DNA of 63,764 nucleotides from Archangium sp. (GTDB lineage Bacteria > Myxococcota > Myxococcia > Myxococcales > Myxococcaceae). The notes beneath the pieces are model-generated. The model was not told the DNA's origin and made no database searches. It worked only from the letters and a program-made list of their open reading frames with translations. Shown piece by piece: positions 3,796 through 63,600 of this stretch (within the stretch, counting starts at the first letter, position 1; the number at the start of each line of letters is the position of its first letter). The translations under genes were made by a program, and so were the position numbers. The stretch is from positions 1 through 63,764 of the forward strand of contig JAUXRX010000045.1 of NCBI GenBank assembly GCA_030681645.1. Direction: 5' to 3'.

Positions 3796-3813
3796 CCCCT
3801 CTCAGGGAGAGGG
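3796..3813. repeat. short perfect palindrome CCCCTCTCAGGGAGAGGG (REP-like family member)
   Basis: Seen directly in the divergent intergenic region between the VIT-vWA and membrane-protein genes. Confidence 0.6.
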
Positions 3814-3838
3814 CCCAAAGTAGTGTACGAGGGCGCTG

Positions 3839-5266
3839 ATGACTGACGAGGGAAAATCCAGGGGAGCGATCTGGTTGGCGCTGCTGGCAGGAGCGATCGT
3901 GCTGGGCACCGGGCCCGCCGTCCTCGCCTTCCTCCTCTTGCTGGGCTCGGACGGCGCCAGCGGCCTCGCGCAGCTGGTGATGGAAGGCGGCGGCGCCAGT
4001 TATGCCGTGCTCTTCGCAGGCGCGCTGGCCAGCCTCATCGGCGCCGTGCTCGCGGCCCTCTCGGTGCGGCGTCCGGGCCTGCCCGCCTCCCTCGCCCTGG
4101 TGCCCTTCGTCCTGCCGGTGCTCGCTGCGCTGGGTGGAGTCATCGTGGGCATGCGCGGCGTCCTCGACGCGGTGACGCACGTCGCGCCCGCGGACAAGGC
4201 CACCATCCTCGCGGCGGCCACGGGAGAGCTCACCTCGTTGTGCATTCAGTCGCTGGCCTTCGCCGCGGCGGGTGCGCTGGCGGTGGCGGTGGCTGCGTTG
4301 GTGAGCCTGGGCGCGCCGGGCCGTGGGGGCCGGCTCCTGACGGTGCTGGGCGCGGGAACGCTCGGCCTCTCGCTCGGCTCCTCGGCCGCGCAGGACATGT
4401 CGATGCGCAGCGGCTTCATGGCGCTGGCGCACGTGAGCCCGGCTGATCGCCTCACCCTCCTCATGGGCGTCATCGAGGACTGGCAGCGGATGAACCAGGT
4501 CTCCAACGCGCTCTTCCTGCTGAGCCTGGCGGTGACGGTGGTGGGCGCGGCGGTGCTGGCGGCGCGTGGGCAGCGGGGCGCGGGCATCGGGGTCGCGGCC
4601 GGGCTGCTCGTCGCGGCGGTGGGCTTTCGGGGCTTCAACGCCATGTCCGAGCGGCAGCTCGCGGGCGTGCGCGACGCGGCTCCACGGGCCGAGCTGATGA
4701 CGGTCGGTGGCCTGGCTCCCCTGAGCTTCAGCACCGTGGCCCTCGAGGACGATGAGCCGGTGCGAATCGACAACCTGGTGCTGCTCCGCGCGCGGTTGAA
4801 CGAGCCGGGTCAGGCGTGGGTTGGCGTCGAGCTCGGGCTGACGCTCAGGCCCCAGACGGTGCTCCGCGCCCTCCAGGCCGCGCACTTCGTGAAGGCGGAG
4901 GTCGAGCTCGTCGGCCAGGCCCAGAAGAAGAACCTCGAGGCGCCGCCCATCTTCGCGGCGGCCGTGGCGGCGATGAGCGACGTCCAGCTCGCGGCGCCGG
5001 TGCGGGTGCTGTACGCCGAGGAGCCCTGTGAGCAGTGCGTCCTCGCCACGCTGACGCCGGCGGGGCTGAAGGTGGGCGAGGTCGAGTGGAAGCAGGAAGA
5101 GGTGCCCCGCTCGGCGGAGGTCCAGACCTTCCCCCTGGTCGAGTTCGCCTGGTCGAAGAACACCGGCGAGCTCGTGCGTGCCGCCCTCATCGCCCTCTCG
5201 CATCAGCACATCCTGGTGGTGCGGGTGCCCCTGCCGGACCCTCCGGTGGTGCTGCCGGATTATTGA
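3839..5266 (+). CDS. polytopic membrane protein, hypothetical
   Basis: It is a 475-aa ORF whose N-terminal ~300 aa are strongly hydrophobic with multiple predicted TM helices, and whose C-terminal part is soluble. It is divergent from the VIT-vWA gene. Confidence 0.6.
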   Translation: MTDEGKSRGAIWLALLAGAIVLGTGPAVLAFLLLLGSDGASGLAQLVMEGGGASYAVLFAGALASLIGAVLAALSVRRPGLPASLALVPFVLPVLAALGGVIVGMRGVLDAVTHVAPADKATILAAATGELTSLCIQSLAFAAAGALAVAVAALVSLGAPGRGGRLLTVLGAGTLGLSLGSSAAQDMSMRSGFMALAHVSPADRLTLLMGVIEDWQRMNQVSNALFLLSLAVTVVGAAVLAARGQRGAGIGVAAGLLVAAVGFRGFNAMSERQLAGVRDAAPRAELMTVGGLAPLSFSTVALEDDEPVRIDNLVLLRARLNEPGQAWVGVELGLTLRPQTVLRALQAAHFVKAEVELVGQAQKKNLEAPPIFAAAVAAMSDVQLAAPVRVLYAEEPCEQCVLATLTPAGLKVGEVEWKQEEVPRSAEVQTFPLVEFAWSKNTGELVRAALIALSHQHILVVRVPLPDPPVVLPDY

Positions 5267-5338
5267 TCCCGGTCATTGGTGGATCCGCGGCGGCGAGCAG
5301 GGCTACCCTCCCGCCTCCACTCGCAGCCGAGGTTGCCC

Positions 5339-5662
5339 ATGCCCAAAGTCACGTCGAGCCGAGCCAAGACCGTCGCCGCGCCGAAGAAGCCTGCCGCCAG
5401 GCCGAAGGCGAAGGCCACCGAGAAGAAGGTCGCGCCGAAGAGCACGGGCTGGACCGCGAAGGGCGGCACGAAGAAGACCACCGTCGGCGGGCGTGGCAGT
5501 GACGTCTCGACGCGTGACTCGCGCGAGCGCGTCGCGAACCTCTACGTGGGAGGCCGGGGCAGCGACAACTCCACCGCCGACTCGCGCCGCCGCATCGCCG
5601 ACATCTACGCGGGCGGGCGCAGCAGCGGCTCGAGCTACAACGGCGGCGGCCGCGGCAGCTGA
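5339..5662 (+). CDS. small lysine/alanine-rich (histone H1/AlgP-like tail) protein with internal GGRGSD..S..DSRRR.A..Y repeats
   Basis: The ATG at ~5339 gives MPKVTSSRAKTVAAPKKPAARPKAKATEKKVAPK..., followed by two copies of VGGRGSD-ST-DSRxR-A-Y. A REP-like element lies just downstream. Confidence 0.4.
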   Translation: MPKVTSSRAKTVAAPKKPAARPKAKATEKKVAPKSTGWTAKGGTKKTTVGGRGSDVSTRDSRERVANLYVGGRGSDNSTADSRRRIADIYAGGRSSGSSYNGGGRGS

Positions 5663-5667
5663 TCCGT

Positions 5668-5739
5668 TCTCCCTCTCCCTGCGCAGCGGGGAACGGCGAA
5701 CTCGCGCCTCGAGGGGAAGGAGGGCCGGGGTGAGGGGCC
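5668..5739. repeat. REP-like element: CCCTCTCCC..GGGGAA + 20-bp motif + GGGGTGAGGGG
   Basis: The sequence is tccctctccctgcgcagcggggaacggcgaactcgcgcctcgaggggaagg...ggggtgagggg. Confidence 0.7.
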
Positions 5740-6653
5740 CAGTGACGAAACACACCATCCGGTTGCGAGAGTTCGCCGCGAGCAAGCTGAAGCGCCTCGC
5801 GCAACCCGGTGACGCAGTCGCGATCACGGGCTCGGTCGCCAGAGGTAACGCGAGAGCCGACTCCGACCTCGACCTGTGGATCCTCGGGACCCGCAGCGGC
5901 CGCTCCGTGCGCCGCCTCGAGGGAGTGAACGTCACGCTGCTCTGCCAGACGCCGGCGGAGGCAGAGCACTTCGACAACCTCTGCCTCTACGAGGTCGACG
6001 ATCTCGTCGTCCTCGAAGACGGCTCAGGCGCGTTCGCGCACCTCCAGGAGAACTGGCGCAAGCACCGCCGCCGCATCCGCGCTGAGATCATCCGCTCGAC
6101 CGAGGCGCAGGTGCGTTGGGAACTCTCGCGCGCGGAGCAGGGGAGCGCGTTGCACCGGTCGTCCTTCCTCCGCTTCGCGGGTTGGCGGCTGATGTGCCTG
6201 CGCGTGTACATCGATCGCGGCTGGCGGGTGCCGCGGCTGCACACGCTGCGTGAGCAGGTGCCGGCGGCGTTGAGGAAGCACCTCGACGCGACGCTCGGGC
6301 TGCCTTCTGCCCCGGTGTGCCGTCGCGCGGTGAAGTGGATGCCTGCTGCGCTGAAGGAAGTGCAGGCGATCGCCGGGCGCGATGGCTACGCGCTGCCTGA
6401 GTCGATCGCCGAGAAGGCGAAGCTCGCTCCTGAGGAGGCCGCGCTCGTCGCTCGCAAGGAGCTGCTGCTCGAGTTGTTGCCTCGCGTGTTCCGTGAGTAC
6501 GGCATCACGGACGTTCGCGGCGTGGAGTTGCTCGGCGGCGTGGCGCCGAAGTTGCGGGCGGCGTTTCGCGCGCTCGAGCCTCGCGCGGATGCGGCGAGCT
6601 TGAAGCGCCTGCGGGGCCACGTGCTCGCCCTCGAGCGATCGCTGCGGCCCTGA
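5730..6653 (+). CDS. nucleotidyltransferase-domain protein (Pol-beta superfamily)
   Basis: The motif GSVARGNARADSDLDLWIL is a GS-x9-DxD nucleotidyltransferase signature near the N-terminus. The track ORF from 5178 is an upstream extension over the REP-like element. The start is a GTG at 5730 or 5742. Confidence 0.6.
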   Translation: MRGPVTKHTIRLREFAASKLKRLAQPGDAVAITGSVARGNARADSDLDLWILGTRSGRSVRRLEGVNVTLLCQTPAEAEHFDNLCLYEVDDLVVLEDGSGAFAHLQENWRKHRRRIRAEIIRSTEAQVRWELSRAEQGSALHRSSFLRFAGWRLMCLRVYIDRGWRVPRLHTLREQVPAALRKHLDATLGLPSAPVCRRAVKWMPAALKEVQAIAGRDGYALPESIAEKAKLAPEEAALVARKELLLELLPRVFREYGITDVRGVELLGGVAPKLRAAFRALEPRADAASLKRLRGHVLALERSLRP

Positions 6654-6703
6654 GGGTTGCGCGGCCCTCTCCCCGACCCGCTCCTGCTCCGGGAGAGGGA
6701 GTA
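6653..6703. repeat. REP-like inverted repeat CCCTCTCCCCGA..GGGAGAGGG
   Basis: Seen directly immediately downstream of the nucleotidyltransferase stop. Confidence 0.7.
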
Positions 6704-6713
6704 GAGTCCTTCG

Positions 6714-8393
6714 GTGGCCGCCGTCTCGTGGTTCGACAGCCTGGAACCGGACCTGCGCGACTGGCTTCGCTCGAAGATGGCGCCGCTCACGCTCGAGTCC
6801 GGAAAACAGCTCTTCGCCGCGGGCTCGCCTTCCGACTGTCTCTACCTCGTGGTGCGGGGTGCCCTCGGGGCGTTCACCGCGGGCGATGAACTCGTCGGGC
6901 AGATCGTCGCCGGCGAGACGGTCGGTGAGTTGGGCCTCGTCACCCGCCGTCCCCGCAACGCCACCGTGCGCGCCCTGCGAGACAGCGCGCTGCTGCGGCT
7001 CTCCCCCGAAGGCTTCGACGCGCTGTGCCGCACCCACCCCGAGGCCGTGCTCGCGCTCGCCCGCGTGGTGCTCGAGCGCGCCCAGCGCCCCATTCACCAG
7101 CGCCTCGCCGCGCACCCGCGCACCATCGCGTTGCTCCCGCAACGTGACGGGCTTCACGTCGACGCCTTCGCCCGCTGGCTCGCCGAGGCGCTCGGCGGCG
7201 ACTCGAAGGTGGCCATCGTGCACCGGGCCGACGCGCCGACCGACGACGCCCTCGACGCGCTCGAGCGCGACCGCGCGTACGTCATCTACCTCGCCCACCC
7301 GGAAGACGACCCCTGGCGCAAGCGCTGCCTCCGCCAGGCCGACGCGCTCGTCTTCGCGGTCGACCTGGTCGAGCCCTGCTCCTGGTGGTCCGAGCTCGAG
7401 CGCGGCGTGCACGCGCCGCTGCCTCGCCCCGAGCACCTGGTGGTGATGCATTCGGGCGACGTGCCTCCCGGCAGCGGCAAGCCGTGGAAGGACAAGCGGC
7501 CCCAGGCGCAGCTCCATCACCTCCGCGGCGCAGGCGACGCGGCCCGCATCGCGCGCCTCATCGCGGGTGAGCCGAAGGGCCTCGTGCTCTCGGGTGGAGG
7601 CGCGCGTGGCTTTGCGCACCTCGGCGTGCTCCGCGCGCTCGAAGAGGCGAAGGTGCCCATCGACGTGGTGGGCGGGGCGAGCATCGGCGCCATCATCGGC
7701 GCGGGCTACGCGGCGGGCTGGTCGATCTCCGAGATGACGCAGGTCTACCGCTCGTCGTTCATCGCCGAGAACCCGCTCTCCGACTGGACGCTGCCCTTCG
7801 TCTCGCTCGTGGGGGGCCGCGCCGTCTCACGCCTGCTCAAGGAAGCCTACGGCCGCCGCGACATCGAAGACCTGGTGCTCCCGTACTTCTGTGTCTCCAC
7901 CAACCTCACCGCGGGCCGCAGCCTGGTGCACCGCAGCGGCCGGGTGTGGAAGTGGCTGCGCGCCTCCGCGGCGATTCCGGGCGTGTTGCCCCCGGTGTTC
8001 CAGGGCGGCCAGGTGCTCGTCGACGGCGGGGTGATGAACAACCTCCCGGTCGACGTGATGCGCGACGGGCTGGTGGCCGACGTCATCGCCGTCGACATCG
8101 GCGCCGACGACGCGGTGCTCGCGCCGGGGTCCCTGGACGAGTTCGAGCTGCCCAGCATCTGGAAGGTGATGTGGGACTGGCTCACGGGCACGCGGCGGCC
8201 TTCGTTGGCCAAGCTGATGCTCGGCAGCGGCATGGTGAACTCGACGGCGGCGACGTTCGCGGCCCGCGCGGCCTCGTCGCTGGTGCTCACGCCGCCGGTC
8301 TCCGACATCGACCTGCTCGACTGGGACTCGTTCGACGTGGCGATCGAGCGCGGCTACGAGTCGACCTGCCGGGCGCTCGAAGAGCAGCGGTGA
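6714..8393 (+). CDS. cyclic-nucleotide-binding domain + patatin-like phospholipase
   Basis: The N-terminal cNMP-binding fold contains GETVGELGLV...RNATVRA. The patatin part has the oxyanion GGGARGFAHLGVL, a GASIG nucleophile elbow (GxSxG) and a DGGVMNNLP catalytic Asp motif. Confidence 0.85.
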   Translation: MAAVSWFDSLEPDLRDWLRSKMAPLTLESGKQLFAAGSPSDCLYLVVRGALGAFTAGDELVGQIVAGETVGELGLVTRRPRNATVRALRDSALLRLSPEGFDALCRTHPEAVLALARVVLERAQRPIHQRLAAHPRTIALLPQRDGLHVDAFARWLAEALGGDSKVAIVHRADAPTDDALDALERDRAYVIYLAHPEDDPWRKRCLRQADALVFAVDLVEPCSWWSELERGVHAPLPRPEHLVVMHSGDVPPGSGKPWKDKRPQAQLHHLRGAGDAARIARLIAGEPKGLVLSGGGARGFAHLGVLRALEEAKVPIDVVGGASIGAIIGAGYAAGWSISEMTQVYRSSFIAENPLSDWTLPFVSLVGGRAVSRLLKEAYGRRDIEDLVLPYFCVSTNLTAGRSLVHRSGRVWKWLRASAAIPGVLPPVFQGGQVLVDGGVMNNLPVDVMRDGLVADVIAVDIGADDAVLAPGSLDEFELPSIWKVMWDWLTGTRRPSLAKLMLGSGMVNSTAATFAARAASSLVLTPPVSDIDLLDWDSFDVAIERGYESTCRALEEQR

Positions 8394-8474
8394 ACGCGGT
8401 TCGTTTTCGTTGCGGCGCCCGAAACAGAGGCGTACGCACGTCCCGTTGACCGTCGTCATTCCCAAGGGGGCACC

Positions 8475-8879
8475 ATGAAAAACGTCATCGTCGTCGCGCT
8501 GTTCACCCTGACTGCCTTCAGCGCCCAGGCTGCGGATCAGGTCGTCACCGTCACCTTCGAGTCCATCGCGAACACGCCGACCAAGAGCGGCGAGAAGCTC
8601 GACCCGAGCCTCTTCAGCTTCGGGCCTGCGGTCGAGGGCGGTGAGCCCGATGAGTCGAAGGCCAGCAGCAGCGGCTTCGGCAAGCCGAAGGACGAGAGCT
8701 GCCGGTGGGCGCTCCTGGCCAGCTTCATGAAGTTCCAGAACAAGGCGAAGGCGATGAACAAGCGCGTGGTCGGCGTGCGTACCTACGCGGGCTCCACTGA
8801 GAGCGCGAAGGCCGACGCGTGCATCTGCCTGGCGGGCGGCGTCGTCGTGCGCAGCGTCATCAAGGCCAGCTACAAGTAA
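8475..8879 (+). CDS. small secreted protein, hypothetical
   Basis: It has the signal peptide MKNVIVVALFTLTAFSAQA, a good RBS (aaggggg) and a local dip in GC. Confidence 0.5.
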   Translation: MKNVIVVALFTLTAFSAQAADQVVTVTFESIANTPTKSGEKLDPSLFSFGPAVEGGEPDESKASSSGFGKPKDESCRWALLASFMKFQNKAKAMNKRVVGVRTYAGSTESAKADACICLAGGVVVRSVIKASYK

Positions 8880-9477
8880 GCGGCCGGGCTCGAGAAGCGG
8901 CGGTGATCGTTGCGGGCTATGCTCCCCCTCGATGGTCTCCGCCCCGCCCACCTTCGCTGAAGCAGCGCGCGTGCCGCTGCATTGGTCGGCGTTCTGGACT
9001 CGCCTCAGCCAGGCCGCAGGGGGCCCATCGCAGGTCACCAACTGGCTCATCGCGCAGGCGAACGCGCGGGGCTTTCACGGCGCCATCGTCAATCGCGAGG
9101 ATGCCCTCGACGCCTCGCTCGGGCTGGAGGACCTGGTCGTGGGGCTGCTCATGCCTCACGCCGAACTCGATGCGCGGGTGATCAAGCTGGTCGTGCGGTT
9201 GCTTCAGTCGACCCAGATCCCCAGCAACTCGTCCGTCGAGCCGCCACGAAGGACCACCTGTGGCGCGCGAAGCAGAGCTGATCCTCCAGGCGCTCGACAG
9301 ACACCTCGAGGGCCCCGGCACCATCCGCCTCCTCGGCGGTGCGGCGTTGATCCTCGGCTACGGCCTCGACCGGGCGACCGAGGACGTCGATCTCCTCCAG
9401 GACGATGCCGAGGTGCGCGCCCGTGGCCGCGTGCGAAGGCTTCGCTGAGTCTCCTCCTCGCGCGCATGCGCTGAGGT

Positions 9478-26440: not shown

Positions 26441-27532
26441 TTGTCGGGAGAGGGCAAGCCGCTTGCACACCAATCGCCCGTGCTGACCTCCGTCCTGCTG
26501 TTGATCACGAGCCAACTGGTCGACGTCCCGCTCCACAAGTTCAAGGCCTTCGCCGAGCCGAGCACCATCGCGGCCGTGGCCCTGTCGCCCGACGCCCACA
26601 CCGTGTCGGTCTGGACACGCTGGTCAGCGCAGACGCCGTGCATCCGCTGGACCGTCGACGTGCAGACCGGAGCCACCGAAGGCTTCGGTGAAGACGCCTG
26701 CCCCGACATCCCGCTGCCGCCCGCGGTGAAGTGCGAAGCCACGGGCTGCCGCCTGGGCAAGAAGCCGCTGGGAGAGACCACGCTTCAGGGAACTCCGCTC
26801 AGAGAGCAGCTCACCGTGCACCCGGTCGAGCCCGTCATCGCCCTCAACTTCGAGCGCGCGCTCACCTTCGTCTCGAGCGCCGACGGGAAGGTGCTCAGCT
26901 CGTTCAGTCACGCAGGCTTCGCGGTGAAGGGCGTGGCGGCGAGTGAAGGGGAATGGCTGCTCTGGGTGCAGGCGCGCGACGGCGCAGATCACCTGTACCT
27001 CGCGGACACCGCCGAGCTGATCGCCCCGGCCGCCGAGAAGCCGTTCGTCCGCGCGGTCTCGCGCATCCGCCTGCCGTCGTCGTTCGGCTGGAAGCAGGAC
27101 ACGCGGGGGCTCACCGATTCGCCGTGCGACTTCTTCGAGCGCGGCGTGATGGCGGGGGACGACGTGCTCTTCCTCGACTGGCGCGCGGACGCGAAGCCCC
27201 TTTCCCCTCGAGGCGCGAGTTCGCACTTCGATCTCTACGTGCGAGGGCAGGGCAGGCAACTGCAGAAGTGGAAGGTCGACGTCTCCAACCCGACCGCGGT
27301 GGCGGGCCTGCATATCGAGCGCATGCACCTCGCGAAGCAGGGGCGGTGGCGGCTGAAGATCACGCTGCCGTTCCCCATCGACTCCCTCGCGATCGCCGAG
27401 GGTGGCGTGAAGGTGGCGCGGCTTCGCCCCATCGCCTGGCCGCTGAGCACGCGCAGCACCGAGCCGAGCTGCGTGTTCGTCGACGGCGAGCTGCAGCCCG
27501 AGCGCTTCATGCTCGATTCCCTGCTTCGCTGA
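26441..27532 (+). CDS. hypothetical protein (TTG start per track)
   Basis: It is a 363-aa ORF immediately after the previous stop, and it contains one copy of the 20-bp motif in-frame. Confidence 0.4.
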   Translation: MSGEGKPLAHQSPVLTSVLLLITSQLVDVPLHKFKAFAEPSTIAAVALSPDAHTVSVWTRWSAQTPCIRWTVDVQTGATEGFGEDACPDIPLPPAVKCEATGCRLGKKPLGETTLQGTPLREQLTVHPVEPVIALNFERALTFVSSADGKVLSSFSHAGFAVKGVAASEGEWLLWVQARDGADHLYLADTAELIAPAAEKPFVRAVSRIRLPSSFGWKQDTRGLTDSPCDFFERGVMAGDDVLFLDWRADAKPLSPRGASSHFDLYVRGQGRQLQKWKVDVSNPTAVAGLHIERMHLAKQGRWRLKITLPFPIDSLAIAEGGVKVARLRPIAWPLSTRSTEPSCVFVDGELQPERFMLDSLLR

Positions 27533-33084: not shown

Positions 33085-35933
<2,849 letters not shown>

Positions 35934-35934
<1 letters not shown>

Positions 35935-37355
35935 TGTCGCTCCTCCACGCGCGCTTCCTCGAGCCGGAGTCCCTGCGCGAGCAGCTGCGCGCGGTGCCGC
36001 ACAGGGTGCTCGAGGCGACCTTCGACACCGGCACGCTCGGTGACGAGGCGGCGGCGGCGCTGGCCGCCACCATCTTCCGCGCCGGTGAGCCGGGCGGGGT
36101 GCTCGACCTCGAGGGCGCCAGCAACTGGGAACAGCGCTTCCACCTCATCGCCTCGCTCGCGCTGACCGACGACGCGCTGGCCACGCAGCTGCTCGAGGGC
36201 GGCTGGCTCGATCGCCGCGGGGTGGGCGCGTTCGCGTTCGGCTCGCTCCCCCTGCGGGTGGTGGCCCGGCAGGTGAACAAGACCTCGCTGCGCCAGGCGC
36301 GTGAGGCGGTGCAGTTCGGGTGGGAATCAGAGCTGCTCAACGTGCTCGAGAGCAGCGCGATGCGGGCCGAGCGGGCGCCCGAGGAGCACGTGGTGCTGCT
36401 GCGCCGCGGAGATCTGTCCAGCCCCCAGCCTTCGCGCACCGAGGCGCTGCAGATCTCCACCCTGCTCAAGGAAGTGCGCGCGCACGGCGCGACCGATCTC
36501 ACCCTCACCGTGGGGCTGCCTCCGACGCTGCACGGCGCGTTCGGCAGCAAGGCGCTGGGTGAAGCGCTGCTCACGCCAGATGAAGTGGCTGACCTGGTGA
36601 GCCCGGTGTTGCCCTCGTCGCTGCTCGCCGCGCGCGGGCCGGTGGTCCACTCCGTGGCGTCGACCGAGCTGGGGCGCTTTCGTGTCACCGTCACCACCGA
36701 GCGCACCTTCCGCGCCGCGACCTTCCGCGCGCTGCCGTCGGCGATCCCCACGCTCGATGAGCTCGGGCTCTCTCCGTTGGTGCAGGGCCCGCTGCTGCGC
36801 CTCGAGCGCGGGCTGCTGCTGCTGAGCGGCGAGCCGGGCAACGGGCGGAGCACCCTCTACTCGGCGCTGCTGCAGCGCTTCGTGGCTGACGGGCGCCACG
36901 TCGCTTCGCTCGAGGAACCGCTGGGCCTCCCGCTCCGTCCCGGACCGGGCGCGGCCCGGCAGTCGATCCTCGGCATGGACGCCGACCTGTCCGACTTCGC
37001 GCGCGCGACGCGGCTGCAGCCGCTCGACGTGGTGGGCTTCGACCTGGTCGACGACGCGCAGGCCCTCGATCTCGCGCTCGACGCCGCGATGGACGGCCGC
37101 CTCGCCGTCTGCGTCTTCCGCGCGCCCAACGTCACCGCCGCGATTCACCGCGCGGGCGTGCTCGACGGCAAGCACCACCGCCGCCGCCTTTCCGAAGGGC
37201 TGGCCGCTTTCATCTACCAGCGGCTCTTCCCGCTCGACGGCAAGCACGTGCTCGAGGTCGACTTCCACCTCCCCTCGATGGCCCTGCGCCGCCACGTGCG
37301 CGCGCACGAGACCCCGCCGCCGCCGATCGTGTTCGAGACCGACTCAGTCGGCTGA
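35934..37355 (+). CDS. PilT/PilU-like secretion-ATPase paralog with degenerate Walker A (likely catalytically inactive)
   Basis: The PilT N-domain-like region is TDLTLTVGLPP...GRFRVTVT. Walker A reads GEPGNGRST (Lys to Arg), and the Walker B/Asp box lacks the catalytic Glu. The ATG overlaps the gyrB stop (TGATG). Confidence 0.7.
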
Positions 37356-37361
37356 ACGAGT

Positions 37362-37414
37362 GTCTCCCTCTCTCCGAGGGGAAGGGCGAACTCGCGCCTC
37401 GAGGGAGAGAGGAG
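37362..37414. repeat. REP-like element with embedded 20-bp motif between convergent PilT-like and recF
   Basis: The sequence is tctccctctctccgaggggaagggcgaactcgcgcctcgagggagagagg. Confidence 0.7.
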
Positions 37415-37527
37415 GGCAACGCTACGGTACGTGTCCCGCGATGCCGATGTGCCAGGAGGCCGCCCCTCGACCCCGCTCGGGGTGAGCGGGTTCGCCCCGA
37501 GGGTCAGCGGGGTCCCGGTTCCAGGCC

Positions 37528-38649
37528 TCAGCGGTGCTCGGGCGAGATGCGGCCCGCGTGAACGCGGTACCACTTCGTGTCTGCTCCGGCCGCGCGCGTC
37601 ACCAGCGCCGCGTCGGTGGTGGTGAGCAGCGTCTGGGCGCCGCTGTCGGCGAGGTAGCCCATCAGGAACGCGTTGCGCTCGGGGTCGAGCTCGCTGGACA
37701 CGTCGTCGAGCAGCAACAGGGGCAGAAAGCCGTTCTGCTGCTGCAGGTTCTCGATCTCGGCCACCTTCCAGGCCAGCACCAGCGCGCGGCTCTGGCCCTG
37801 GCTGGCGTAGGCGCGCGCGGGCTTCTCGCCCAGGGTGATGTCGACGTCGTCGGCGTGCGGCCCCACCGACGTGAAGCCGCGCTCGACGTCGCGGGTGAGG
37901 CGCGCGTCGAGGCGCCCCAGCATCTGCGCGGCGAGCTCGGCCTCCGACGCGGTGCCAAAGACGATGCCCTCGCCCAGGTGCGCCGGTTCGTAGCTCCACT
38001 GCGCCTCGAGCGGCGAGCGGCCGATGCGCTGGAACGCCGCGCGCGCCCGCTCGACCAGGCTGACCATCAGGCCGCGGCGCCGCACCCACAGCCGCGCCCC
38101 CAGCTTCGCCAGGGTGGCGTCCCACGCCTGGAGGTGGCTCATGGGCGCGCGGTCCTTGAGCAGCTTGTTGCGGCTCTTGAGCGCGCGGCCGTACTCGCGG
38201 CTCTCGTCGAGGTAGCCGGGCACCACGTTGAAGACGCTGCGATCGAGGAAGGCGCGCCGGCCGTCGGGCCCGCCCTTCACCACCGCGAGATCGTCGGGCG
38301 TGAAGGCCACCACCGACACGCCCCCGAAGTAGGCGTCGAGCGAGTGGGCGCGCTTGCCGTCGACGAAGGCGGTGCGCCCCCCGGGAATGACCTCGACCGA
38401 GATCTCCCGCTCGGCGCCCGCGATGAGGAAGCGGCCCGTCACCTTCGCGCTCGGCTCCCCGAAACGAATGAGCTCGCTGAGCTTGTTCGCGCGCAGCGGC
38501 TTGAGCGTGGCCAGCAGGTACAGCCCCTCGAGCAGGTTGGTCTTGCCCTGGCCGTTCTCGCCCACGGCGATGGTGGCGTGCGGCGACGGCTCGAGCGAGA
38601 TGGGCTCGAGGTTGCGAAACCGCTCGTACGAGAGCGAGAGCAGCTTCAC
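37528..38649 (-). CDS. recF: DNA replication and repair protein RecF
   Basis: The GTG start gives VKLLSLSYERFRNLEP...VGENGQGKTNLLEG, aligning with E. coli RecF MSLTRLLIRDFRNIE...VGANGSGKTSVLEA. The ABC signature and D-loop are present. Confidence 0.9.
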   Translation of the reverse strand: MKLLSLSYERFRNLEPISLEPSPHATIAVGENGQGKTNLLEGLYLLATLKPLRANKLSELIRFGEPSAKVTGRFLIAGAEREISVEVIPGGRTAFVDGKRAHSLDAYFGGVSVVAFTPDDLAVVKGGPDGRRAFLDRSVFNVVPGYLDESREYGRALKSRNKLLKDRAPMSHLQAWDATLAKLGARLWVRRRGLMVSLVERARAAFQRIGRSPLEAQWSYEPAHLGEGIVFGTASEAELAAQMLGRLDARLTRDVERGFTSVGPHADDVDITLGEKPARAYASQGQSRALVLAWKVAEIENLQQQNGFLPLLLLDDVSSELDPERNAFLMGYLADSGAQTLLTTTDAALVTRAAGADTKWYRVHAGRISPEHR

Positions 38650-46655: not shown

Positions 46656-46659
46656 TTCT

Positions 46660-46703
46660 TTCTCCCTCTCCCTGCGAAGTGGGGAGAAGGTTGGGGTGAG
46701 GGC
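46660..46703. repeat. REP-like element CTCCCTCTCCCTGCGAAGTGGGGAGAAGGTTGGGGTGAGGG
   Basis: Seen directly between the histidine-kinase stop and glgA. Confidence 0.7.
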
Positions 46704-46715
46704 CCTGACTCCGCA

Positions 46716-48164: not shown

Positions 48165-48173
48165 GGTCCTGAC

Positions 48174-49397: not shown

Positions 49398-49466
49398 TGT
49401 TCGGGCAACTCCGGCAACGGCCGCGTCCCTTGAGTTGATCGCGGCCCGGTCTTACTCTTCTGACAG

Positions 49467-49544: not shown

Positions 49545-49559
49545 ACGCGCAACGATGAG

Positions 49560-51026: not shown

Positions 51027-51086
51027 CGTCAGTGCGCATAGCAGACGCGATGCAGCGCAGGCAAAGCTCCGCGTCGACCAGCCGGC

Positions 51087-54303: not shown

Positions 54304-54544
54304 CGACTTTGGCCGTTGGGTCCAGTGGCGTCACGGAAAAGAAGAGGAGAGGGCGTCCGTTGATTCCCTGCGCGGCGGAGTTGCCACCTTGATTTGCCAG
54401 TCCGCGAACACGAGTGATTACGGCGAGATGAACGCCCAGTCGTTCAGTGGAGTCTCGCTCCGATCAGCAGAAGTCATGACATGATGACGCGGCCTTGCGA
54501 GAAGCGGCTGACGACTTGACGCGAGCCACACCGGAGCAAACGAC

Positions 54545-55471: not shown

Positions 55472-55473
55472 GC

Positions 55474-56613: not shown

Positions 56614-56634
56614 ACTTTCGCGAAGGGAAAAACA

Positions 56635-58619: not shown

Positions 58620-58629
58620 CGGGAGGCTG

Positions 58630-60552: not shown

Positions 60553-60597
60553 GGCAGGTCAAGGCGGCGGAAGGCGCGATGAGGCCACAGTGACGCC

Positions 60598-61158: not shown

Positions 61159-61197
61159 GTTGCCGTGGTGACGTGGTTGTCATACGTTATGTATGAC

Positions 61198-61455
61198 ATG
61201 AGTACCCGAATCAACGCCCGCATCGACGACGAGCTGAGCCGTCAGCTGGAAGAGCTGCGCCGACGCTCGGGCCAGACCCTCACTGAGGTCATCGAGGCCG
61301 CGATCCGCGCGTGGACGCAGGAGCAGCTCGGAAAGCGTCCCTCCGCCGCGGAGGTGTTCGCGTCCACCGGCTTCATCGGGTCGGGCGACGGACCGCGAGA
61401 CCTGGCCCGCAATGCGAAGAAGTACCTCTCTGAGTCGCTCAAGAGGAAGGCGTGA
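61198..61455 (+). CDS. ribbon-helix-helix antitoxin (VapB-like)
   Basis: It starts MSTRINARIDDELSRQLEEL, which is RHH-like, and it overlaps the start of the downstream PIN gene. Confidence 0.6.
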   Translation: MSTRINARIDDELSRQLEELRRRSGQTLTEVIEAAIRAWTQEQLGKRPSAAEVFASTGFIGSGDGPRDLARNAKKYLSESLKRKA

Positions 61456-61874
61456 TCATCGCGGACACAGGGTTCTTCGTTGCGCTGGCCAATCGAGGCG
61501 ACAAGGACAACGAGGCCGCGGTGAAGGCCCTCGGGAAGCTGCGGGAGGGGCTGGTGACGACCTGGCCGGTCGTGACCGAGACGACGCACCTGCTTGCTAC
61601 GCGGTCGGGCACGCATGCGCTGCTGGCCTGGGTGGCGAGCGCTCGCGCGGGCGCCTTCAAGATCTTCGAGCTGAACGCAGGGCACTGGCTTCGGCTCGAG
61701 GGGTTCATGAAGCACTACGCCGATTTGCCAATGGACCTTGCCGATGCGTCGCTCGTGTTGCTTGCCGAGGAGCAGAACGACGGGCGGATCTTGTCGACCG
61801 ATCGCCGCGATTTCCGGACGTATCGCTGGAAGAAGCGGAAGCCTTTCAAGAACCTGCTCGATCTCGAAGACTGA
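61452..61874 (+). CDS. vapC: PIN-domain ribonuclease toxin VapC
   Basis: The N-terminus reads IIADTGFFVAL, conserved acidic residues are present (TETT...D.AD), and it is about 140 aa. The GTG overlaps the upstream TGA. Confidence 0.8.
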   Translation: MIIADTGFFVALANRGDKDNEAAVKALGKLREGLVTTWPVVTETTHLLATRSGTHALLAWVASARAGAFKIFELNAGHWLRLEGFMKHYADLPMDLADASLVLLAEEQNDGRILSTDRRDFRTYRWKKRKPFKNLLDLED

Positions 61875-61883
61875 GGCATTCGC

Positions 61884-62228
61884 TCAGGACGATCGGATTG
61901 CGTCTGAGATGTCGACGACCTTGCTCATCCTTCTGAGGTCGAGCTGCTCGCCTTTCGTGCGCGCGTCGTAGGCGAAGCGCAGCGTGGCGTGCTCGACGAC
62001 CCGGCGAACAATGCGATTCGTAATCACGACCTGACGGATGAGCCTCACGGCTCCTTCGCCGCTGGGGACCTCCGTTTGCCCGTAGTCGAAAGAGCATGTG
62101 ATGGCCGGTCCCGGGAGCTCGCGAGGCCAGATGACCAGCGAGATGTAGCCGTCGTTTCCGTTGGCGCGCCACAGGTACTTGACGTCGTTGACGACGATGT
62201 TTCGTGCGCCGACCTTCGACTTCGCCAT
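61884..62228 (-). CDS. hypothetical small protein
   Basis: It is a 114-aa ORF downstream of ATP-grasp paralog B. No domain was recognised. Confidence 0.3.
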   Translation of the reverse strand: MAKSKVGARNIVVNDVKYLWRANGNDGYISLVIWPRELPGPAITCSFDYGQTEVPSGEGAVRLIRQVVITNRIVRRVVEHATLRFAYDARTKGEQLDLRRMSKVVDISDAIRSS

Positions 62229-62249
62229 CGATGCCTCTCTCGGGGTTTG

Positions 62250-62287
62250 CCCTCTCCCCGACCCTCTCCCCCTCGGGGAGAGGGAGA
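62250..62287. repeat. REP-like element CCCTCTCCCCGACCCTCTCCCCCTCGGGGAGAGGGAG
   Basis: Seen directly downstream of the ATP-grasp paralog B stop. Confidence 0.7.
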
Positions 62288-62305
62288 CACTTTCTTTCTT
62301 TGCTC

Positions 62306-63526
62306 TCAGCCTCCCGCGTAGAGCGTGACGTCCGTCGCGGCGGCGAAGGCGATCTTGTAGGCCGTGTCCCAGTTGGGGTGGCGGATCATGAGGTGGCCGT
62401 CGGAGAGCAGCGTCTGCTTCCAGTTGCGCCGCATCGTGCCCGGGCGCAGCAGCTGCTCCTCGACCACGTAGTCTCCGTACTTGTGCAGGTACTCACGCAG
62501 CCCGGTGATGCGCGTGATGCGCCCCTGGCCCAGCGCGCGCTTGAAGATGATGCCCGCGTTGTACTTGCGCTTGGTCGACCCCTCGAACGACTTCCAGCAC
62601 GCCACCCGCGCCCACTCGCGGAAGAGGTCGACGTCGCCCGTGTAGTTCATCTGGTCCACCAGGTGCGCGCCGCCGGGCCGGCAGCCGATCTCACCGAACA
62701 CCGCCTCGCCCTTCTTCGTCATGAACCATTCCATGTGGGTGAAGCCGTCGCCCATGTTGAGCGCCTTGAGCACCTTCCGCCCCAGCGCGATGCCCGGCTT
62801 GATCTTCGGCTGGTCGAGCTCGCGCACCGTGATGATCACCGGGCTCACCCACTCGTTGCTCCGCGCGATCAACGGCGGCGGCAGGTAGGCCGCCACGTTC
62901 TCGTACAGCGGCTTTCCCCCCACCGAGATGGTGTCGTAGGTGAACTCTTCGCCGTCGATGAACTCCTCGCAGCTGCAGACCTCGACGTGCCTCATCATCG
63001 GGATCGCCGACTCGAGCTCGGCCTTCGAGGACACCTTGTAGGTGTCGGCGCTGCCGGCGCCCGAGATGGGCTTCAAGATGAGCGGGTAGCCGATCTTCTC
63101 CGCCGCTTCGCGGATCTCCCGCTCGCTCTTCACCTTGAAGGCGTGCGGCACGCGCAGCCCCGCCGCCTTCACCCGGTCCTTCATCAACATCTTGTCGCGG
63201 AAGCCCGTGACCGTGTCGACCGACATGCCCGGCAGGCCGAAGCGCTCGCGCAGCTTCGCCGCGAGGATCACCAGCGGCTCCCAGTTCGCCAGGATGCGAT
63301 CGATGCGGCGGCCGCGCAGCCAGGCCGACACGCGCTTGATCACGTCTTCTTCGTCCATGATGCGCGGCACCTGGAGGTAGTCCGCGAGGTACGGCTTGAG
63401 CGTCGGAGGGAGGCCGCGCCGGGAGGAGTCACCCACCCCGAAGACGTTGGCGCCCACTTCGGCGAGGCCACGCGTGTATTGCTGCATCTCTGGCGGGTAC
63501 GAGGGCGCGAGGAAGACGACGTTCAT
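62306..63526 (-). CDS. ATP-grasp domain protein (paralog B)
   Basis: ATP-grasp core motifs are present, and it is a 406-aa paralog of the gene at 48174..49397. Confidence 0.7.
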   Translation of the reverse strand: MNVVFLAPSYPPEMQQYTRGLAEVGANVFGVGDSSRRGLPPTLKPYLADYLQVPRIMDEEDVIKRVSAWLRGRRIDRILANWEPLVILAAKLRERFGLPGMSVDTVTGFRDKMLMKDRVKAAGLRVPHAFKVKSEREIREAAEKIGYPLILKPISGAGSADTYKVSSKAELESAIPMMRHVEVCSCEEFIDGEEFTYDTISVGGKPLYENVAAYLPPPLIARSNEWVSPVIITVRELDQPKIKPGIALGRKVLKALNMGDGFTHMEWFMTKKGEAVFGEIGCRPGGAHLVDQMNYTGDVDLFREWARVACWKSFEGSTKRKYNAGIIFKRALGQGRITRITGLREYLHKYGDYVVEEQLLRPGTMRRNWKQTLLSDGHLMIRHPNWDTAYKIAFAAATDVTLYAGG

Positions 63527-63575
63527 GGGGCCGGAGCATAGCTGCCGGGCTTATGGGTCAGCTGCGCAGAATTTG

Positions 63576-63600
63576 CCCCTCACCCCGGCCCTCTCCCCGC
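63576..63600. repeat. REP-like half element CCCCTCACCCCGGCCCTCTCCCCGC
   Basis: Seen directly; it is followed by a tandem repeat rather than the inverted partner. Confidence 0.55.

What the first reader, a model, noticed from the sequence alone, without database searches (positions are those of the whole stretch)
3796..63600. Family of REP-like intergenic inverted repeats (CCCTCTCCC...GGGAGAGGG ± GGGGTGAGGGG)
At least nine copies of a GC-rich palindromic element occur, almost all in short gaps at gene 3' ends or between convergent genes. Their positions are 3796, 5668, 6653, 10419, 15498, 37362, 46660, 62250 and 63576. Stem sequences are near-identical while loops vary. Several carry a flanking CCCCTCACCCC/GGGGTGAGGGG arm. 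This matches the behaviour of repetitive extragenic palindromes, which act as bidirectional transcript-stabilising or terminating hairpins and as binding sites for REP-associated transposases or gyrase. One copy overlaps the stop codon of the EF-G-like gene.
Basis: seen in the sequence. Interest (0 to 1): 0.55.

Follow-up and report, generated by a model that had tools for sequence, protein, structure and literature searches.

The report
BoxC-like triplex-motif repeats after genes
The nine GC-rich palindromes are real copies of a long-known but still unexplained bacterial repeat (BoxC, also called the intrastrand triplex motif), found here in a myxobacterium just after gene ends; they are not classical REP elements.

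Summary
CCCTCTCCC occurs 15 times against 1.1 expected. All nine listed sites are intergenic and seven start 2-21 nt after a stop codon. The full unit is CCCTCTCCC, a loop, GGGAGAGGG, 3 nt, then GGGTGAGGG. This is the E. coli BoxC / PIT / TM-ECO motif (Holder 2015), here with a 12-bp stem in an Archangium-like MAG contig. The same unit occurs across many phyla with unrelated flanks and is almost absent from viral contigs. Across 110 copies it favours convergent gaps over divergent ones (odds ratio 12.6) in either orientation. No transposase or RAYT is on the contig, there is no GTAG head, and no T-run follows the hairpins. The "flanking arm" is a mirror repeat. When a stem pair changes from C-G to T-A, the arm changes G to A at the mirror position. 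This held for 5 of 5 existing variants and in a prospective test (23/30 against 3/152). That is the rule of a purine-motif DNA triplex. It is not predicted by a hairpin-only, G-quadruplex or alternative-hairpin model. Copies turn over quickly and lie at synteny breakpoints. The kind is known, this is a new member, and its function is still unknown.

The parts
10417..10461 (-). Complete three-block unit: CCCTCTCCC, TGC-GAA-GCG, GGGAGAGGG, CCG, GGGTGAGGGG. It fills the 44-nt gap between the stop codons of the hydrolase gene (9478..10416, plus strand) and the EF-G-like gene (10461..12518, minus strand).
   Evidence: CM 68.7 bits, E=6e-16. RNA fold -26.2 kcal/mol on the G-rich strand and -21.0 on the other. 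Pfam for the flanking genes.
15498..15542 (+). Complete three-block unit in a convergent gap, 10 nt after the stop of 14309..15490 (plus strand) and 14 nt before the stop of the R2K ATP-grasp gene 15555..16370 (minus strand). It sits at one edge of a 3-gene block that relatives lack.
   Evidence: CM 67 bits. Fold -30.7 kcal/mol, z=-3.2. Synteny comparison.
46661..46705 (+). Three-block unit with decay: the purine block reads GGGAGAAGG (uncompensated change) and the third block GGGTGAGGGC. It lies in a tandem gap, 8 nt after the histidine-kinase stop and 13 nt before the glycogen-synthase start.
   Evidence: CM 57.8 bits.. Pfam.
62247..62287 (-). Three-block unit of the short-loop type: CCCTCTCCCC, GAG, GGGGAGAGGG, TCG, GGGAGAGGG. 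The third block has A instead of T. It starts 21 nt after the stop of the ATP-grasp gene 62306..63526 (minus strand). This copy matches the published TM-ECO pattern exactly.
   Evidence: CM 44.5 bits..
5671..5737 (+). Three-block unit whose purine block is interrupted by a 27-nt insertion (5693-5719) with core GGCGAACTCGCGCCTCGAGGG. It lies in a tandem gap, 8 nt after the stop at 5662.
   Evidence: Alignment to the canonical copy. CM partial hits. The orthologous gap in L109 is 12 nt and has no element.
6662..6702 (-). Degenerate unit. The hairpin CCCTCTCCC...GGGAGAGGG (6665-6699) has a 17-nt loop. Read on the minus strand, that loop is a decayed middle block. It lies in a tandem gap, 11 nt after the stop at 6653.
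   Evidence: CM 28.5 bits, E=1.6e-5 on the minus strand. Fold -22 kcal/mol. Absent from the orthologous gap in L109.
63574..63600 (-). Truncated copy. Only the purine block and third block remain (plus strand CCCCTCACCCCGGCCCTCTCCCCGC). The partner arm is replaced by an 83-nt tandem repeat that runs to the contig end.
   Evidence: I23, D7; E=0.009.
37365..37419 (+). Related but divergent hairpin, CTCCCTCTCTCCGAGG...CCTCGAGGGAGAGAGGAG, with no third block. Its loop and 3' arm contain the 21-mer repeat. It lies 10 nt after the stop at 37355, in a convergent gap with the recF-like gene.
   Evidence: CM E=0.35. Fold -32.6 kcal/mol, z=-2.5..
3797..3815 (.). Short remnant hairpin CCCTCTC-AGG-GAGAGGG between the divergent starts of the VIT-domain gene (812..3760, minus strand) and 3875..5266 (plus strand). 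In relative L107 a hairpin-only copy lies between the EF-G stop and this same VIT gene.
   Evidence: CM E=1.8. Fold -12.7 kcal/mol, z=-1.1..
26446..26454 (+). Solitary GGGAGAGGG block 5 nt after the stop at 26440. It is a possible remnant of a unit.
   Evidence: No partner block is present.

Best explanation
The nine sites are copies of the BoxC / PIT / TM-ECO dispersed repeat. This is a non-coding, non-autonomous three-block unit made of a pyrimidine block (CCCTCTCCC), its Watson-Crick complement (GGGAGAGGG), and a third purine block (GGGTGAGGG) that is a mirror image of the second.

The copies lie on a contig of an Archangium-like myxobacterial MAG. In this lineage the stem is extended to 12 bp around a 3-nt loop.

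Shown:
- The family is strongly over-represented and strictly intergenic. It sits just after stop codons in either orientation and avoids divergent (promoter) gaps.
- Each strand can form a hairpin of -21 to -31 kcal/mol.
- The third block co-varies with the stem by the triad rule of an antiparallel purine-motif triplex (C.G*G, T.A*A or T.A*T).
- Copies are gained, lost or remodelled between strains that share 85-98% protein identity. They coincide with gene-content breakpoints.

Inferred:
- The fold under selection is a single-stranded DNA fold, hairpin plus third strand. According to the literature this triplex type does not form in RNA.
- Copies are spread or maintained by some copying process that needs this fold. 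The lineage-specific signature (T at stem position 10 in all myxobacterial copies, C elsewhere) points to copying from master copies rather than independent origin at each site.
- The elements persist at gene 3' ends because only there are they tolerated. As by-products they give mRNAs a stable 3' hairpin and make the site prone to replication stalling and rearrangement.

No dedicated enzyme is known.
For: Identity with the known family:
- The block pattern matches the 23 E. coli K-12 TM-ECO sequences and the published consensus.
- The window unit hits 4448 of 5426 E. coli genomes. Nearly all places are chromosomal, and the listed top hits lie in unannotated DNA.
- One example, the phnP/yjdP convergent gap, is a four-block BoxC.
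- The G-rich 21-mer equals K. pneumoniae KP-PGQ-5.

Enrichment.

Distribution:
Flanks are unrelated and loops vary.
- Only 1 hit occurs in 2.9 million viral contigs.

Position:
- Gaps with an element: 26 convergent, 3 divergent, 34 tandem. Background gaps in the same loci: 51, 74 and 293. Fisher p=2e-6.
- The median distance to the nearest stop codon is about 15-24 nt for single units.

Pairing: stem position 10 is C-G, T.G or G-C in different lineages.

Triad covariation:
- Compensated T-A pairs at positions 1, 3 and 9 all have A at the mirror index of block 3. This is 5 of 5, against 6 of 354 at C-G positions (p=1e-8).
- In a prospective metagenome scan for hairpins with T-A at position 8, with block 3 left free, 23 of 30 have A at position 8. 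Canonical hairpins have A or T there in 3 of 152 (p=5e-20).
- The variant third block is GGGAGAGAG, the mirror of the purine block. It is never GAGAGAGGG, the direct copy.

Turnover, seen at the site just 3' of the EF-G stop:
- full unit in the window;
- a different variant in L111 (98% identity);
- a degenerate hairpin in L112 (93%);
- hairpin only in L107 (85%);
- nothing in L113, L109, L110 and L108.
- The downstream gene differs in almost every relative.
- Orthologous gaps of 12 nt in L109 lack the elements present in the window.
Against: - No copying mechanism or enzyme is identified, and the contig has no transposase.
- No target-site duplication is visible at the two insertion sites compared.
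- Holder 2015 found no triplex signal for the double-stranded sequence in vitro and none in in-vivo DMS footprints. Any triplex would therefore be transient.
- Three or four of the nine window copies lack a usable third block, so the third strand is not needed for persistence.
- The covariation counts are not corrected for shared descent of subfamilies. Independent events number about four positions, not 28 copies.
- 7 of 30 position-8 variants keep G in block 3.
- A position-specific RNA function (3'-end protection) cannot be excluded from sequence alone.
Confidence: 0.6

Rival explanations
1. Classical REP/REPIN system. The palindromes are recognised and mobilised by a REP-associated tyrosine transposase (RAYT) encoded elsewhere in the genome. 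They also serve as gyrase-binding or transcript-stabilising sites.
For: - The family is extragenic, palindromic and present in many copies, with conserved stems and free loops.
- It shows a 3'-end and convergent-gap bias like REPs.
- 36 of 110 copies in other genomes form inverted pairs resembling REPIN doublets.
- Presence/absence polymorphism occurs between close relatives.
- The T-versus-C lineage signature suggests copying from master copies.
Against: - No Y1_Tnp/RAYT or any transposase is found among about 52 proteins of the 63.8-kb contig.
- There is no GT[AG]G head. The foot of the stem is preceded by CT or TCT.
- The sequence is near-identical across phyla, whereas REPs are lineage-specific and co-evolve with their RAYT (own knowledge: Nunvar 2010; Bertels and Rainey 2011).
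- E. coli has both REP/BIME with its RAYT and BoxC as separate families.
- A REP model does not predict the mirror-repeat third block or its covariation.
Confidence: 0.12
2. Locus-by-locus selected RNA elements. The hairpin directly after the stop codon acts as a terminator without a U-tract, as a barrier to 3'-5' exonucleases, or, like REPs within 15 nt of a stop codon, as a brake on terminating ribosomes. The G-rich tail is accessory.
For: - Seven of nine window copies begin 2-21 nt after a stop codon.
- Across genomes the median stop-to-element distance is about 15 nt, and convergent gaps are favoured.
- Stems are very stable, and the G-tail strand is 5-7 kcal/mol more stable thanks to a conserved U.G pair.
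- REP elements close to stop codons are reported to reduce translation through ribosome stalling (own knowledge: Liang, Rudd and Deutscher 2015; not verified in the library).
Against: - Single units show no orientation bias in tandem gaps (12 against 9). An apparent polarity disappeared once inverted pairs were set aside.
- No T-run follows the hairpins.
- PIT elements had no terminator or promoter activity in E. coli.
- Orthologous sites in close relatives lack the element or carry a different variant. This argues against a conserved per-gene function.
- Triad covariation of the third block is not expected for an RNA hairpin, and purine-motif triplexes are reported not to form in RNA.
Confidence: 0.2
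3. G-quadruplex/hairpin switch. The two purine blocks supply four G3 tracts that fold into a G-quadruplex competing with the hairpin. This would act as an ion- or state-dependent regulatory switch (Kaplan 2016).
For: - GGGAGAGGG-NNG-GGGTGAGGG fits the pattern of four G3+ tracts separated by 1-7 nt.
- The identical 21-mer forms a G-quadruplex in vitro (KP-PGQ-5, Tm 58.6 C).
- CD evidence supports a hairpin/G-quadruplex transition for the E. coli motifs.
Against: - Variant subfamilies replace G with A in both purine blocks at mirror positions, for example GAGAGAGGG / GGGAGAGAG and GGGAGAAGG / GGATGAGGG. This destroys the G3 tracts but keeps the triad rule.
- Hairpin-only copies persist (6662, L107).
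- No functional data exist.
Confidence: 0.05
4. Compositional chance. The C/T-rich and G/A-rich runs are what a 70% GC genome produces, and the palindromes are ordinary terminator-like hairpins with no common origin.
For: Single blocks also occur inside genes (30298, 31796, 52928). Shuffled sequences of this composition also fold well, giving modest z-scores.
Against: - CCCTCTCCC occurs 15 times against 1.1 expected, with 0 of 100 shuffles reaching 15.
- Copies 42-48 nt long are 85-95% identical within the window (I1, I2, I23).
- CM E-values reach 1e-15.
- The identical unit occurs in more than 100 other genomes with unrelated flanks.
Confidence: 0.01

Closest known systems
BoxC / PIT (potential intrastrand triplex) / TM-ECO motif of E. 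coli and other Proteobacteria (Bachellier 1990s; Hoyne and Maher 2000; Holder et al. 2015, PMC4666352)
   Same: - It has the same three blocks in the same order and the same 3-nt second loop of type B (CCG/TCG).
- It is always intergenic.
- It occurs as single units and inverted pairs.
- Copy numbers vary strongly between related genomes.
- It is associated with local genomic variability.
- It is absent from phages and small mobile elements.
- Direct sequence similarity is about 84% over 44 nt.
   Different: - Here the stem is extended to 12 bp (CCCTCTCCCTGC-GMA-GCGGGGAGAGGG) with a conserved T.G pair. With 9-nt blocks the first loop is therefore 9 nt, outside the published N3-6 pattern. Only the 62247 copy fits that pattern literally.
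- The host is a myxobacterium, a group not mentioned in that paper.
- Density in this contig is high, about one per 7 kb.
- In E. coli the motifs were reported more often upstream than downstream of ORFs. Here and in 110 other copies they follow stop codons and avoid divergent gaps.
REP / BIME / REPIN elements with RAYT transposases
   Same: Both are short extragenic GC-rich palindromes present in many copies at gene 3' ends. Both occur as inverted doublets in some genomes and show presence/absence variation between strains.
   Different: This family has no GTAG head, no RAYT on the contig, and a cross-phylum identical sequence instead of a lineage-specific one. Its third block is a mirror repeat that REPs lack.
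HPGQ 'G-quadruplex-hairpin-duplex switch' motifs of E. coli (Kaplan et al. 2016, PMC5100583)
   Same: These are the same E. coli sequences viewed as four G-tracts with a C-rich 5' flank. They are intergenic and often occur in opposed pairs.
   Different: That model rests on the G-tracts. The variant subfamilies found here lose the G-tracts but keep mirror symmetry.
H-DNA-forming mirror repeats (homopurine/homopyrimidine tracts)
   Same: Both have mirror symmetry of a purine tract and the triads C.G*G, T.A*A and T.A*T. Both are linked to replication blockage and instability in the literature.
   Different: H-DNA needs a long uninterrupted mirror repeat in duplex DNA under supercoiling. This unit places all three strands on one DNA strand, joined by two short loops (intrastrand, class II).

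Membership tests
BoxC / PIT / TM-ECO intrastrand triplex motif | A 9-nt pyrimidine block CCCTCNCCC followed by its complement GGGNGAGGG | tested here: met
   Exact blocks are present at 5671, 6665/6691, 10432/10450, 15501/15519, 46664 (purine block with 1 mismatch) and 62262/62276.
BoxC / PIT / TM-ECO intrastrand triplex motif | First loop of 3-6 nt | tested here: inconclusive
   The 62247 copy has a 5-nt loop between 9-nt blocks and fits literally. Copies 10417, 15498 and 46661 have 9 nt between the 9-nt blocks, but 6 of these pair, leaving a 3-nt loop on a 12-bp stem.
BoxC / PIT / TM-ECO intrastrand triplex motif | A 3-nt second loop followed by a second purine block GGGNGAGGG | tested here: met
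   Present in 10417, 15498, 46661, 5671, 62247 and the truncated 63574. Absent or decayed in 3797, 6662 and 37365.
BoxC / PIT / TM-ECO intrastrand triplex motif | The third block obeys purine-motif triad rules relative to the stem (mirror symmetry) | tested here: met
   5 of 5 compensated variants, and 23 of 30 in a prospective scan against 3 of 152 controls.
BoxC / PIT / TM-ECO intrastrand triplex motif | Always intergenic; not carried by phages or small mobile elements | tested here: met
   9 of 9 window sites are intergenic. There is 1 hit in 2.9 million viral contigs. Plasmid hits are mostly rhizobial megaplasmids or chromids.
BoxC / PIT / TM-ECO intrastrand triplex motif | Sequence similarity to the E. 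coli copies | tested here: met
   4448 of 5426 E. coli genomes are hit, at about 84% identity over 44 nt. The phnP/yjdP example was read directly.
BoxC / PIT / TM-ECO intrastrand triplex motif | [quoted passage not shown] | not testable with these tools
   Shown by CD and NMR for the E. coli sequence only (Holder 2015).
REP / REPIN-RAYT | Short imperfect extragenic palindrome in many copies | tested here: met
REP / REPIN-RAYT | Conserved GT[AG]G tetranucleotide at the 5' foot of the hairpin | tested here: not met
   The bases before the stem are CT, TCT or variable in 110 copies.
REP / REPIN-RAYT | A RAYT (Y1_Tnp) gene in the genome, typically flanked by the REPs | tested here: inconclusive
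   None is found among about 52 predicted proteins of the 63.8-kb contig. The rest of the genome could not be searched.
REP / REPIN-RAYT | Sequence specific to a species or genus | tested here: not met
   The same 39-nt pattern occurs in at least eight phyla.
Intrinsic (Rho-independent) terminator | GC-rich hairpin immediately followed by a U/T run | tested here: not met
   The hairpins are present, but none of the 5 terminator-like sites found in 3000-17000 coincides with an element. The tails are G-rich or mixed.
Canonical G-quadruplex motif | Four G3+ tracts separated by 1-7 nt, conserved as such | tested here: inconclusive
   Canonical copies meet it by sequence. Variant subfamilies lose the tracts yet keep the architecture.
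MITE | Terminal inverted repeats plus a target-site duplication | tested here: not met
   No duplication is seen at the two filled-versus-empty sites compared with L109. Units are 40-45 nt.

The most novel reading that the evidence does not exclude
The intrastrand DNA triplex is the fold that selection actually sees. The three-block unit would then be maintained or copied, in many bacterial phyla, by a process acting on single-stranded DNA that reads hairpin plus third strand. Candidates are a still unidentified structure-specific nuclease or recombinase, or a replication-restart or priming factor. The mirror-position covariation would be the first comparative-genomic proof that a DNA triplex is biologically relevant in bacteria.
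Probability: 0.3. Interest if true: 0.8.

Novelty: new member of a known kind. Interest (0 to 1): 0.45.

Why it matters
BoxC/PIT/TM elements have been known since the 1990s, and no function has been assigned to them. This window adds a myxobacterial lineage with a high density of an extended-stem version. Together with the scans, it shows that the unit reaches far beyond the Proteobacteria originally reported.

The practical consequences are modest. These repeats break metagenome assemblies (L111 ends inside one). They get translated into spurious PLSP..GERVGVRG peptide tails. They also mark places where gene order changes.

The scientific point is the mirror-position covariation. It separates the triplex model from the hairpin, G-quadruplex and alternative-hairpin models using sequence data alone. 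It also turns an old question, whether the triplex is real in vivo, into a test that can be run over all genomes and checked with a handful of oligonucleotides.

Tried and rejected
1. Polarity. At first the pyrimidine-block side appeared to sit closer to a co-oriented stop codon (median 15.5 against 72 nt, p=1.6e-4; in convergent gaps 22 against 5). This was an artefact. 36 of 110 copies have an inverted partner within 140 nt on the G side. For single units the difference is not significant.

2. Rfam. There is no match at gathering score or at E<=1.

3. RAYT or transposase. Pfam scans of about 52 predicted proteins found none.

4. Canonical terminators. No T-run sites fall at the elements.

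5. Replication-strand bias. I counted by hand from Table 1 of Holder 2015, taking oriC near 3.92 Mb and dif near 1.59 Mb from my own knowledge. Of 13 unpaired E. coli units, 8 lie on the lagging-strand template and 5 do not, which is not significant.

6. Extending the window past its right end. The ATP-grasp protein 62306..63526 is not on record. The window later proved to be a whole contig.

7. First triad-anchoring script. It allowed 8 of 9 pairs and slipped the register by one base. I redid it giving priority to 9 of 9 pairs.

8. Integron attC sites and MITEs. I considered and dropped both. The elements are dispersed in both orientations among housekeeping genes, with no integrase and no target-site duplication.

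9. Literature. Searches for a later functional study of BoxC/TM elements found only reviews.

Full report

Yes. CCCTCTCCC occurs 15 times on the two strands, against 1.13 expected from dinucleotide-preserving shuffles. None of 100 shuffles reaches 15. GGGGTGAGGGG with at most one mismatch occurs 10 times against 2.7 expected.

Reading the nine listed sites shows the motif at every one. A relaxed block search and a covariance model run with filters off find the same sites and nothing else convincing.

- Seven are robust copies: 10417(-), 15498(+), 46661(+), 62247(-), 6662(-), 5702(+) and the truncated 63574(-).
- Two are weak relatives: 37365 (E=0.35) and 3797 (E=1.8).
- Copies 42-48 nt long are 85-95% identical to each other (I1, I2, I23).

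**2. Where do they sit?**

I built a gene map from codon statistics and checked about 52 products against Pfam. The window is 90% coding, yet all nine sites are intergenic, with a chance probability of about 8e-10.

- Four lie in convergent gaps (10417, 15498, 37365, 62247).
- Three lie in tandem gaps (5671, 6662, 46661).
- One lies between divergent gene starts (3797).
- One lies at the contig end (63574).
- Seven start 2-21 nt after a stop codon.

The copy beside the EF-G-like gene (10461..12518, minus strand) starts 2 nt from the stop codon. It fills the whole 44-nt gap to the stop of the convergent hydrolase gene. It abuts the stop codon rather than overlapping it.

**3. What is the unit?**

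The complete unit has three blocks, not two arms plus an optional flank. It reads CCCTCTCCC, TGC-GMA-GCG, GGGAGAGGG, YCG, GGGTGAGGG(G).

A full-text search for the block sequences led to Holder et al. 2015 (PMC4666352). Their Table 1 lists 23 E. coli K-12 "TM-ECO" sequences, for example CCCTCTCCCTGTGGGAGAGGGTCGGGGTGAGGGC. Their consensus is CCCTCNCCC, N3-6, GGGNGAGGG, N3, GGGNGAGGG.

The motif is the BoxC repeat of the 1990s and the "PIT" element of Hoyne and Maher. According to that paper:

- It was found 3610 times in 262 proteobacterial genomes.
- It is always intergenic.
- It is not linked to phages, plasmids or transposons.
- It has no promoter or terminator activity.
- It forms a triplex as an isolated strand in vitro but gave no in-vivo footprint.
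- It is associated with elevated local variability.

The same E. coli sequences were also described as a G-quadruplex/hairpin switch (PMC5100583). The 21-mer GGGAGAGGGCCGGGGTGAGGG, identical to the tail of the 10417 copy, forms a G-quadruplex in vitro as KP-PGQ-5.

Direct comparison confirms the relationship. The 53-nt window unit hits 4448 of 5426 complete E. coli genomes. Nearly all places are chromosomal, and the listed top hits lie in unannotated DNA. One hit I read out, in the phnP/yjdP convergent gap, is a four-block BoxC. Rfam has no family for it.

**4. Source organism and distribution**

A protein search returned a 100% match from an NCBI "Archangium sp." MAG whose longest contig is 63,764 bp. 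The window is therefore a whole contig. EF-G orthologues at 85-98% identity also come from Archangium or Myxococcales MAGs.

Hits came from:

- Myxococcota;
- Alpha-, Beta- and Gammaproteobacteria;
- Acidobacteriota;
- Chloroflexota;
- Verrucomicrobiota;
- Planctomycetota;
- Omnitrophota.

The flanks are unrelated and the loop triplets differ, but the stems are identical. Stem position 10 is T (a T.G pair) in the myxobacterial copies, mostly C (C-G) elsewhere, and G-C in two Polyangiales copies. The window shares nothing with these loci except the element.

Only one match exists in 2.9 million viral contigs. Plasmid matches are mainly rhizobial megaplasmids and chromids.

**5.

I called genes in the fetched loci and classified 110 copies. 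Gaps holding an element are 26 convergent, 3 divergent and 34 tandem. The other gaps of the same loci are 51, 74 and 293. The convergent-versus-divergent odds ratio is 12.6, p=2e-6.

In tandem gaps both orientations occur (17 against 15). In both cases the element lies nearer the upstream stop codon than the downstream start.

An apparent polarity proved to be caused by composite elements. The pyrimidine side had looked closer to the stop codon (p=1.6e-4). However, 36 of 110 copies have an inverted partner within 140 nt on the G side, as in E. coli BoxC pairs. For single units there is no significant asymmetry.

So the elements behave like REPs in where they lie. There is no evidence for a strand-specific transcript function.

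**6. Folding**

As RNA the canonical copies fold at -21 to -31 kcal/mol, with z-scores of -2 to -3.2. The strand carrying the G-tail is 5-7 kcal/mol more stable because of the wobble pair.

None has a T-run. None of the terminator-like sites found between 3000 and 17000 coincides with an element.

**7. What the third block is**

I used the covariance model to collect 52 further copies from the fetched loci that had not been selected by the exact pattern. I set the register from Watson-Crick pairing of blocks 1 and 2 only. Block 3 then follows block 1 index by index: C gives G, and T gives A or T.

Every copy in which a stem pair had changed from C-G to T-A carries A at the same index of block 3:

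- position 1: L044;
- position 3: L027 and L081;
- position 9: L057 and L034.

That is 5 of 5, against A at 6 of 354 C-G positions (p=1e-8). The two A/T positions of block 3 toggle only between A and T (GGGTGAGGG, GGGAGAGGG, GGGTGTGGG).

I then made a prospective test. A metagenome scan looked for hairpins with T-A at position 8 (CCCTCTYTC, N3-9, GARAGAGGG), leaving block 3 free. Block 3 has A at position 8 in 23 of 30 copies. Canonical hairpins have A or T there in 3 of 152 (p=5e-20).

The variant third block is GGGAGAGAG, the mirror image of GAGAGAGGG. It is never the direct copy.

Mirror symmetry with these substitutions is the rule of an antiparallel purine-motif triplex (C.G*G, T.A*A, T.A*T). 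The other models do not predict it:

- A hairpin-only model makes no prediction for block 3.
- An alternative hairpin between blocks 1 and 3 needs a direct copy of block 2.
- A G-quadruplex needs G-tracts, and these variants lose them.

Holder's text contains no covariation analysis. The counts are not corrected for shared descent, so the independent evidence is about four positions. According to the literature, purine-motif triplexes do not form in RNA. This points to a constraint acting on single-stranded DNA.

**8. Turnover and synteny**

I fetched EF-G orthologues and their contigs. Directly after the EF-G stop codon:

| Source | EF-G identity | What lies after the stop |
|---|---|---|
| window | - | full unit |
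| L111 | 98% | a different short-loop variant; the contig ends inside it |
| L112 | 93% | a degenerate hairpin |
| L107 | 85% | a hairpin-only copy |
| L113 | 90% | no element |
| L109, L110 | 87% | no element |
| L108 | 80% | no element |

The gene downstream of EF-G differs in almost every relative.

Compared with L109, the window shows several differences:

- It has elements in two gaps that are only 12 nt long and element-free in L109 (at 5671 and 6662).
- It has a three-gene insertion between the R2K ATP-grasp gene and EF-G, with the 15498 unit at its edge.
- It has different genes between the patatin gene and EF-G, with the 10417 unit at the edge.

In L107 the block between EF-G and the VIT-domain gene is missing, and a single hairpin copy sits at the junction. 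The window has a full copy and a remnant (3797), in the same orientation, at the two ends of that block. No target-site duplication is visible.

The relatives carry 0-2 elements per 12-22 kb, against 9 in 64 kb here.

**9. Conclusion on mechanism**

The family identity is secure. The best-supported account is a non-autonomous repeat whose single-strand fold (hairpin plus third strand) is under selection.

The lineage signature at stem position 10 points to spread by copying from master copies. The copies are tolerated just after genes and excluded from promoter gaps. They turn over fast and lie at rearrangement points.

RNA-level effects, such as a 3' hairpin or an obstacle to the terminating ribosome, are plausible side effects but are not shown. 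The REP/RAYT reading fails two defining features and cannot be fully tested without the genome.

What copies the elements, and whether the triplex ever forms in cells, remains open.

**10. Side observations**

A 21-mer, GGCGAACTCGCGCCTCGAGGG, occurs five times, against 0.09 expected for its 20-nt core. It is the core of a 27-nt unit that appears in four settings:

- It interrupts the purine block of the 5671 element.
- It lies within the 37365 hairpin.
- It forms an in-frame nine-codon insertion (ELAPRGQNG, 17131-17157) in a major-vault-protein-like gene. Orthologues at 98% identity from other assemblies lack this insertion.
- It forms another in-frame insertion (SPRGASSHF) in gene 26480..27532. 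Six homologues lack it, but an 87%-identical orthologue from a different metagenome shares it, with 25 of 27 nt conserved.

A separate 24-nt in-frame insertion in the vault-like gene is polymorphic among the same strains. I could not explain these insertions. They may be more novel than the finding I was given.

Noticed in passing
window 5693-5719, 16388-16408, 17131-17157, 27197-27223, 37385-37405: A 21-mer, GGCGAACTCGCGCCTCGAGGG, occurs 5 times exactly (0.09 expected for its 20-nt core). It is the core of a 27-nt unit. One copy interrupts the triplex-motif element at 5671 and another lies inside the 37365 hairpin. Two copies are in-frame 9-codon insertions in genes. ELAPRGQNG in the vault-like gene is absent from 98%-identical orthologues. 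SPRGASSHF in 26480..27532 is absent from 6 homologues but shared, 25/27 nt, with an 87%-identical orthologue from another metagenome. Junctions show microhomology with the target. This may be a tiny templated-insertion or mini mobile unit. The core is absent from 829 kb of other fetched loci.
   Followed up: partly
window 17953-17976: A second, unrelated 24-nt in-frame insertion (PSTPLGPG; DNA CCCTCGACTCCCCTCGGGCCAGGC, able to form a small GGCCC/GGGCC hairpin) lies in the same vault-like gene. It is present in one 98%-identical orthologue (Logan assembly) and absent from another (ENA).
   Followed up: partly
window 63597-63762: Two tandem copies (94% identical) of an 83-nt unit run to the contig end, directly after the truncated element at 63574-63600. 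The unit is not found elsewhere in the window or in any fetched locus (D7, 82). It probably caused the assembly break.
   Followed up: partly
L111 7066-7085 (contig end): The contig of the closest relative (EF-G 98% identical) ends inside a triplex-motif element 13 nt after the EF-G stop. These repeats fragment metagenome assemblies.
   Followed up: no
protein P0143 (Myxococcaceae MAG), C-terminus: The vault-like protein of another MAG ends in ...PLSPDGERVGVRGD..., which is the translation of a triplex-motif unit. The called ORF reads through an element, giving either an annotation artefact or a real C-terminal extension.
   Followed up: no
window 12519-12660 and 63560-63575; L111, L112, L113 upstream of EF-G: A conserved upstream stretch (GCAGAATTTGCG ... 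GAACTCCCC.GAAACAG.GACGGTAC...GCTGCAC) precedes the EF-G-like gene in the window and three relatives. GCGCAGAATTTGC also precedes the element at 63576. It may be a promoter or leader motif.
   Followed up: no
window 51087-53315 (minus strand): A 742-aa protein with a PKD domain has about 13 coding repeats of 114-120 nt (about 39 aa), resembling beta-propeller blades. It is the largest direct-repeat family in the window (D1-D3, 55).
   Followed up: no
window 61165-61874; L113 2196-2734: Toxin-antitoxin pairs (RHH+PIN in the window; RHH+PemK directly after EF-G in L113) lie beside triplex-motif elements of the C-block/C-block/G-block type. This fits these junctions being sites of gene gain.
   Followed up: no
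window 33520-38649: gyrB (33520..35934) and a recF-like gene (37528..38649, minus strand) are convergent and separated by a T2SSE-like ATPase gene. This differs from the usual dnaA-dnaN-recF-gyrB order. The gyrB region is 92% identical to L107 but lies in a different neighbourhood there.
   Followed up: no
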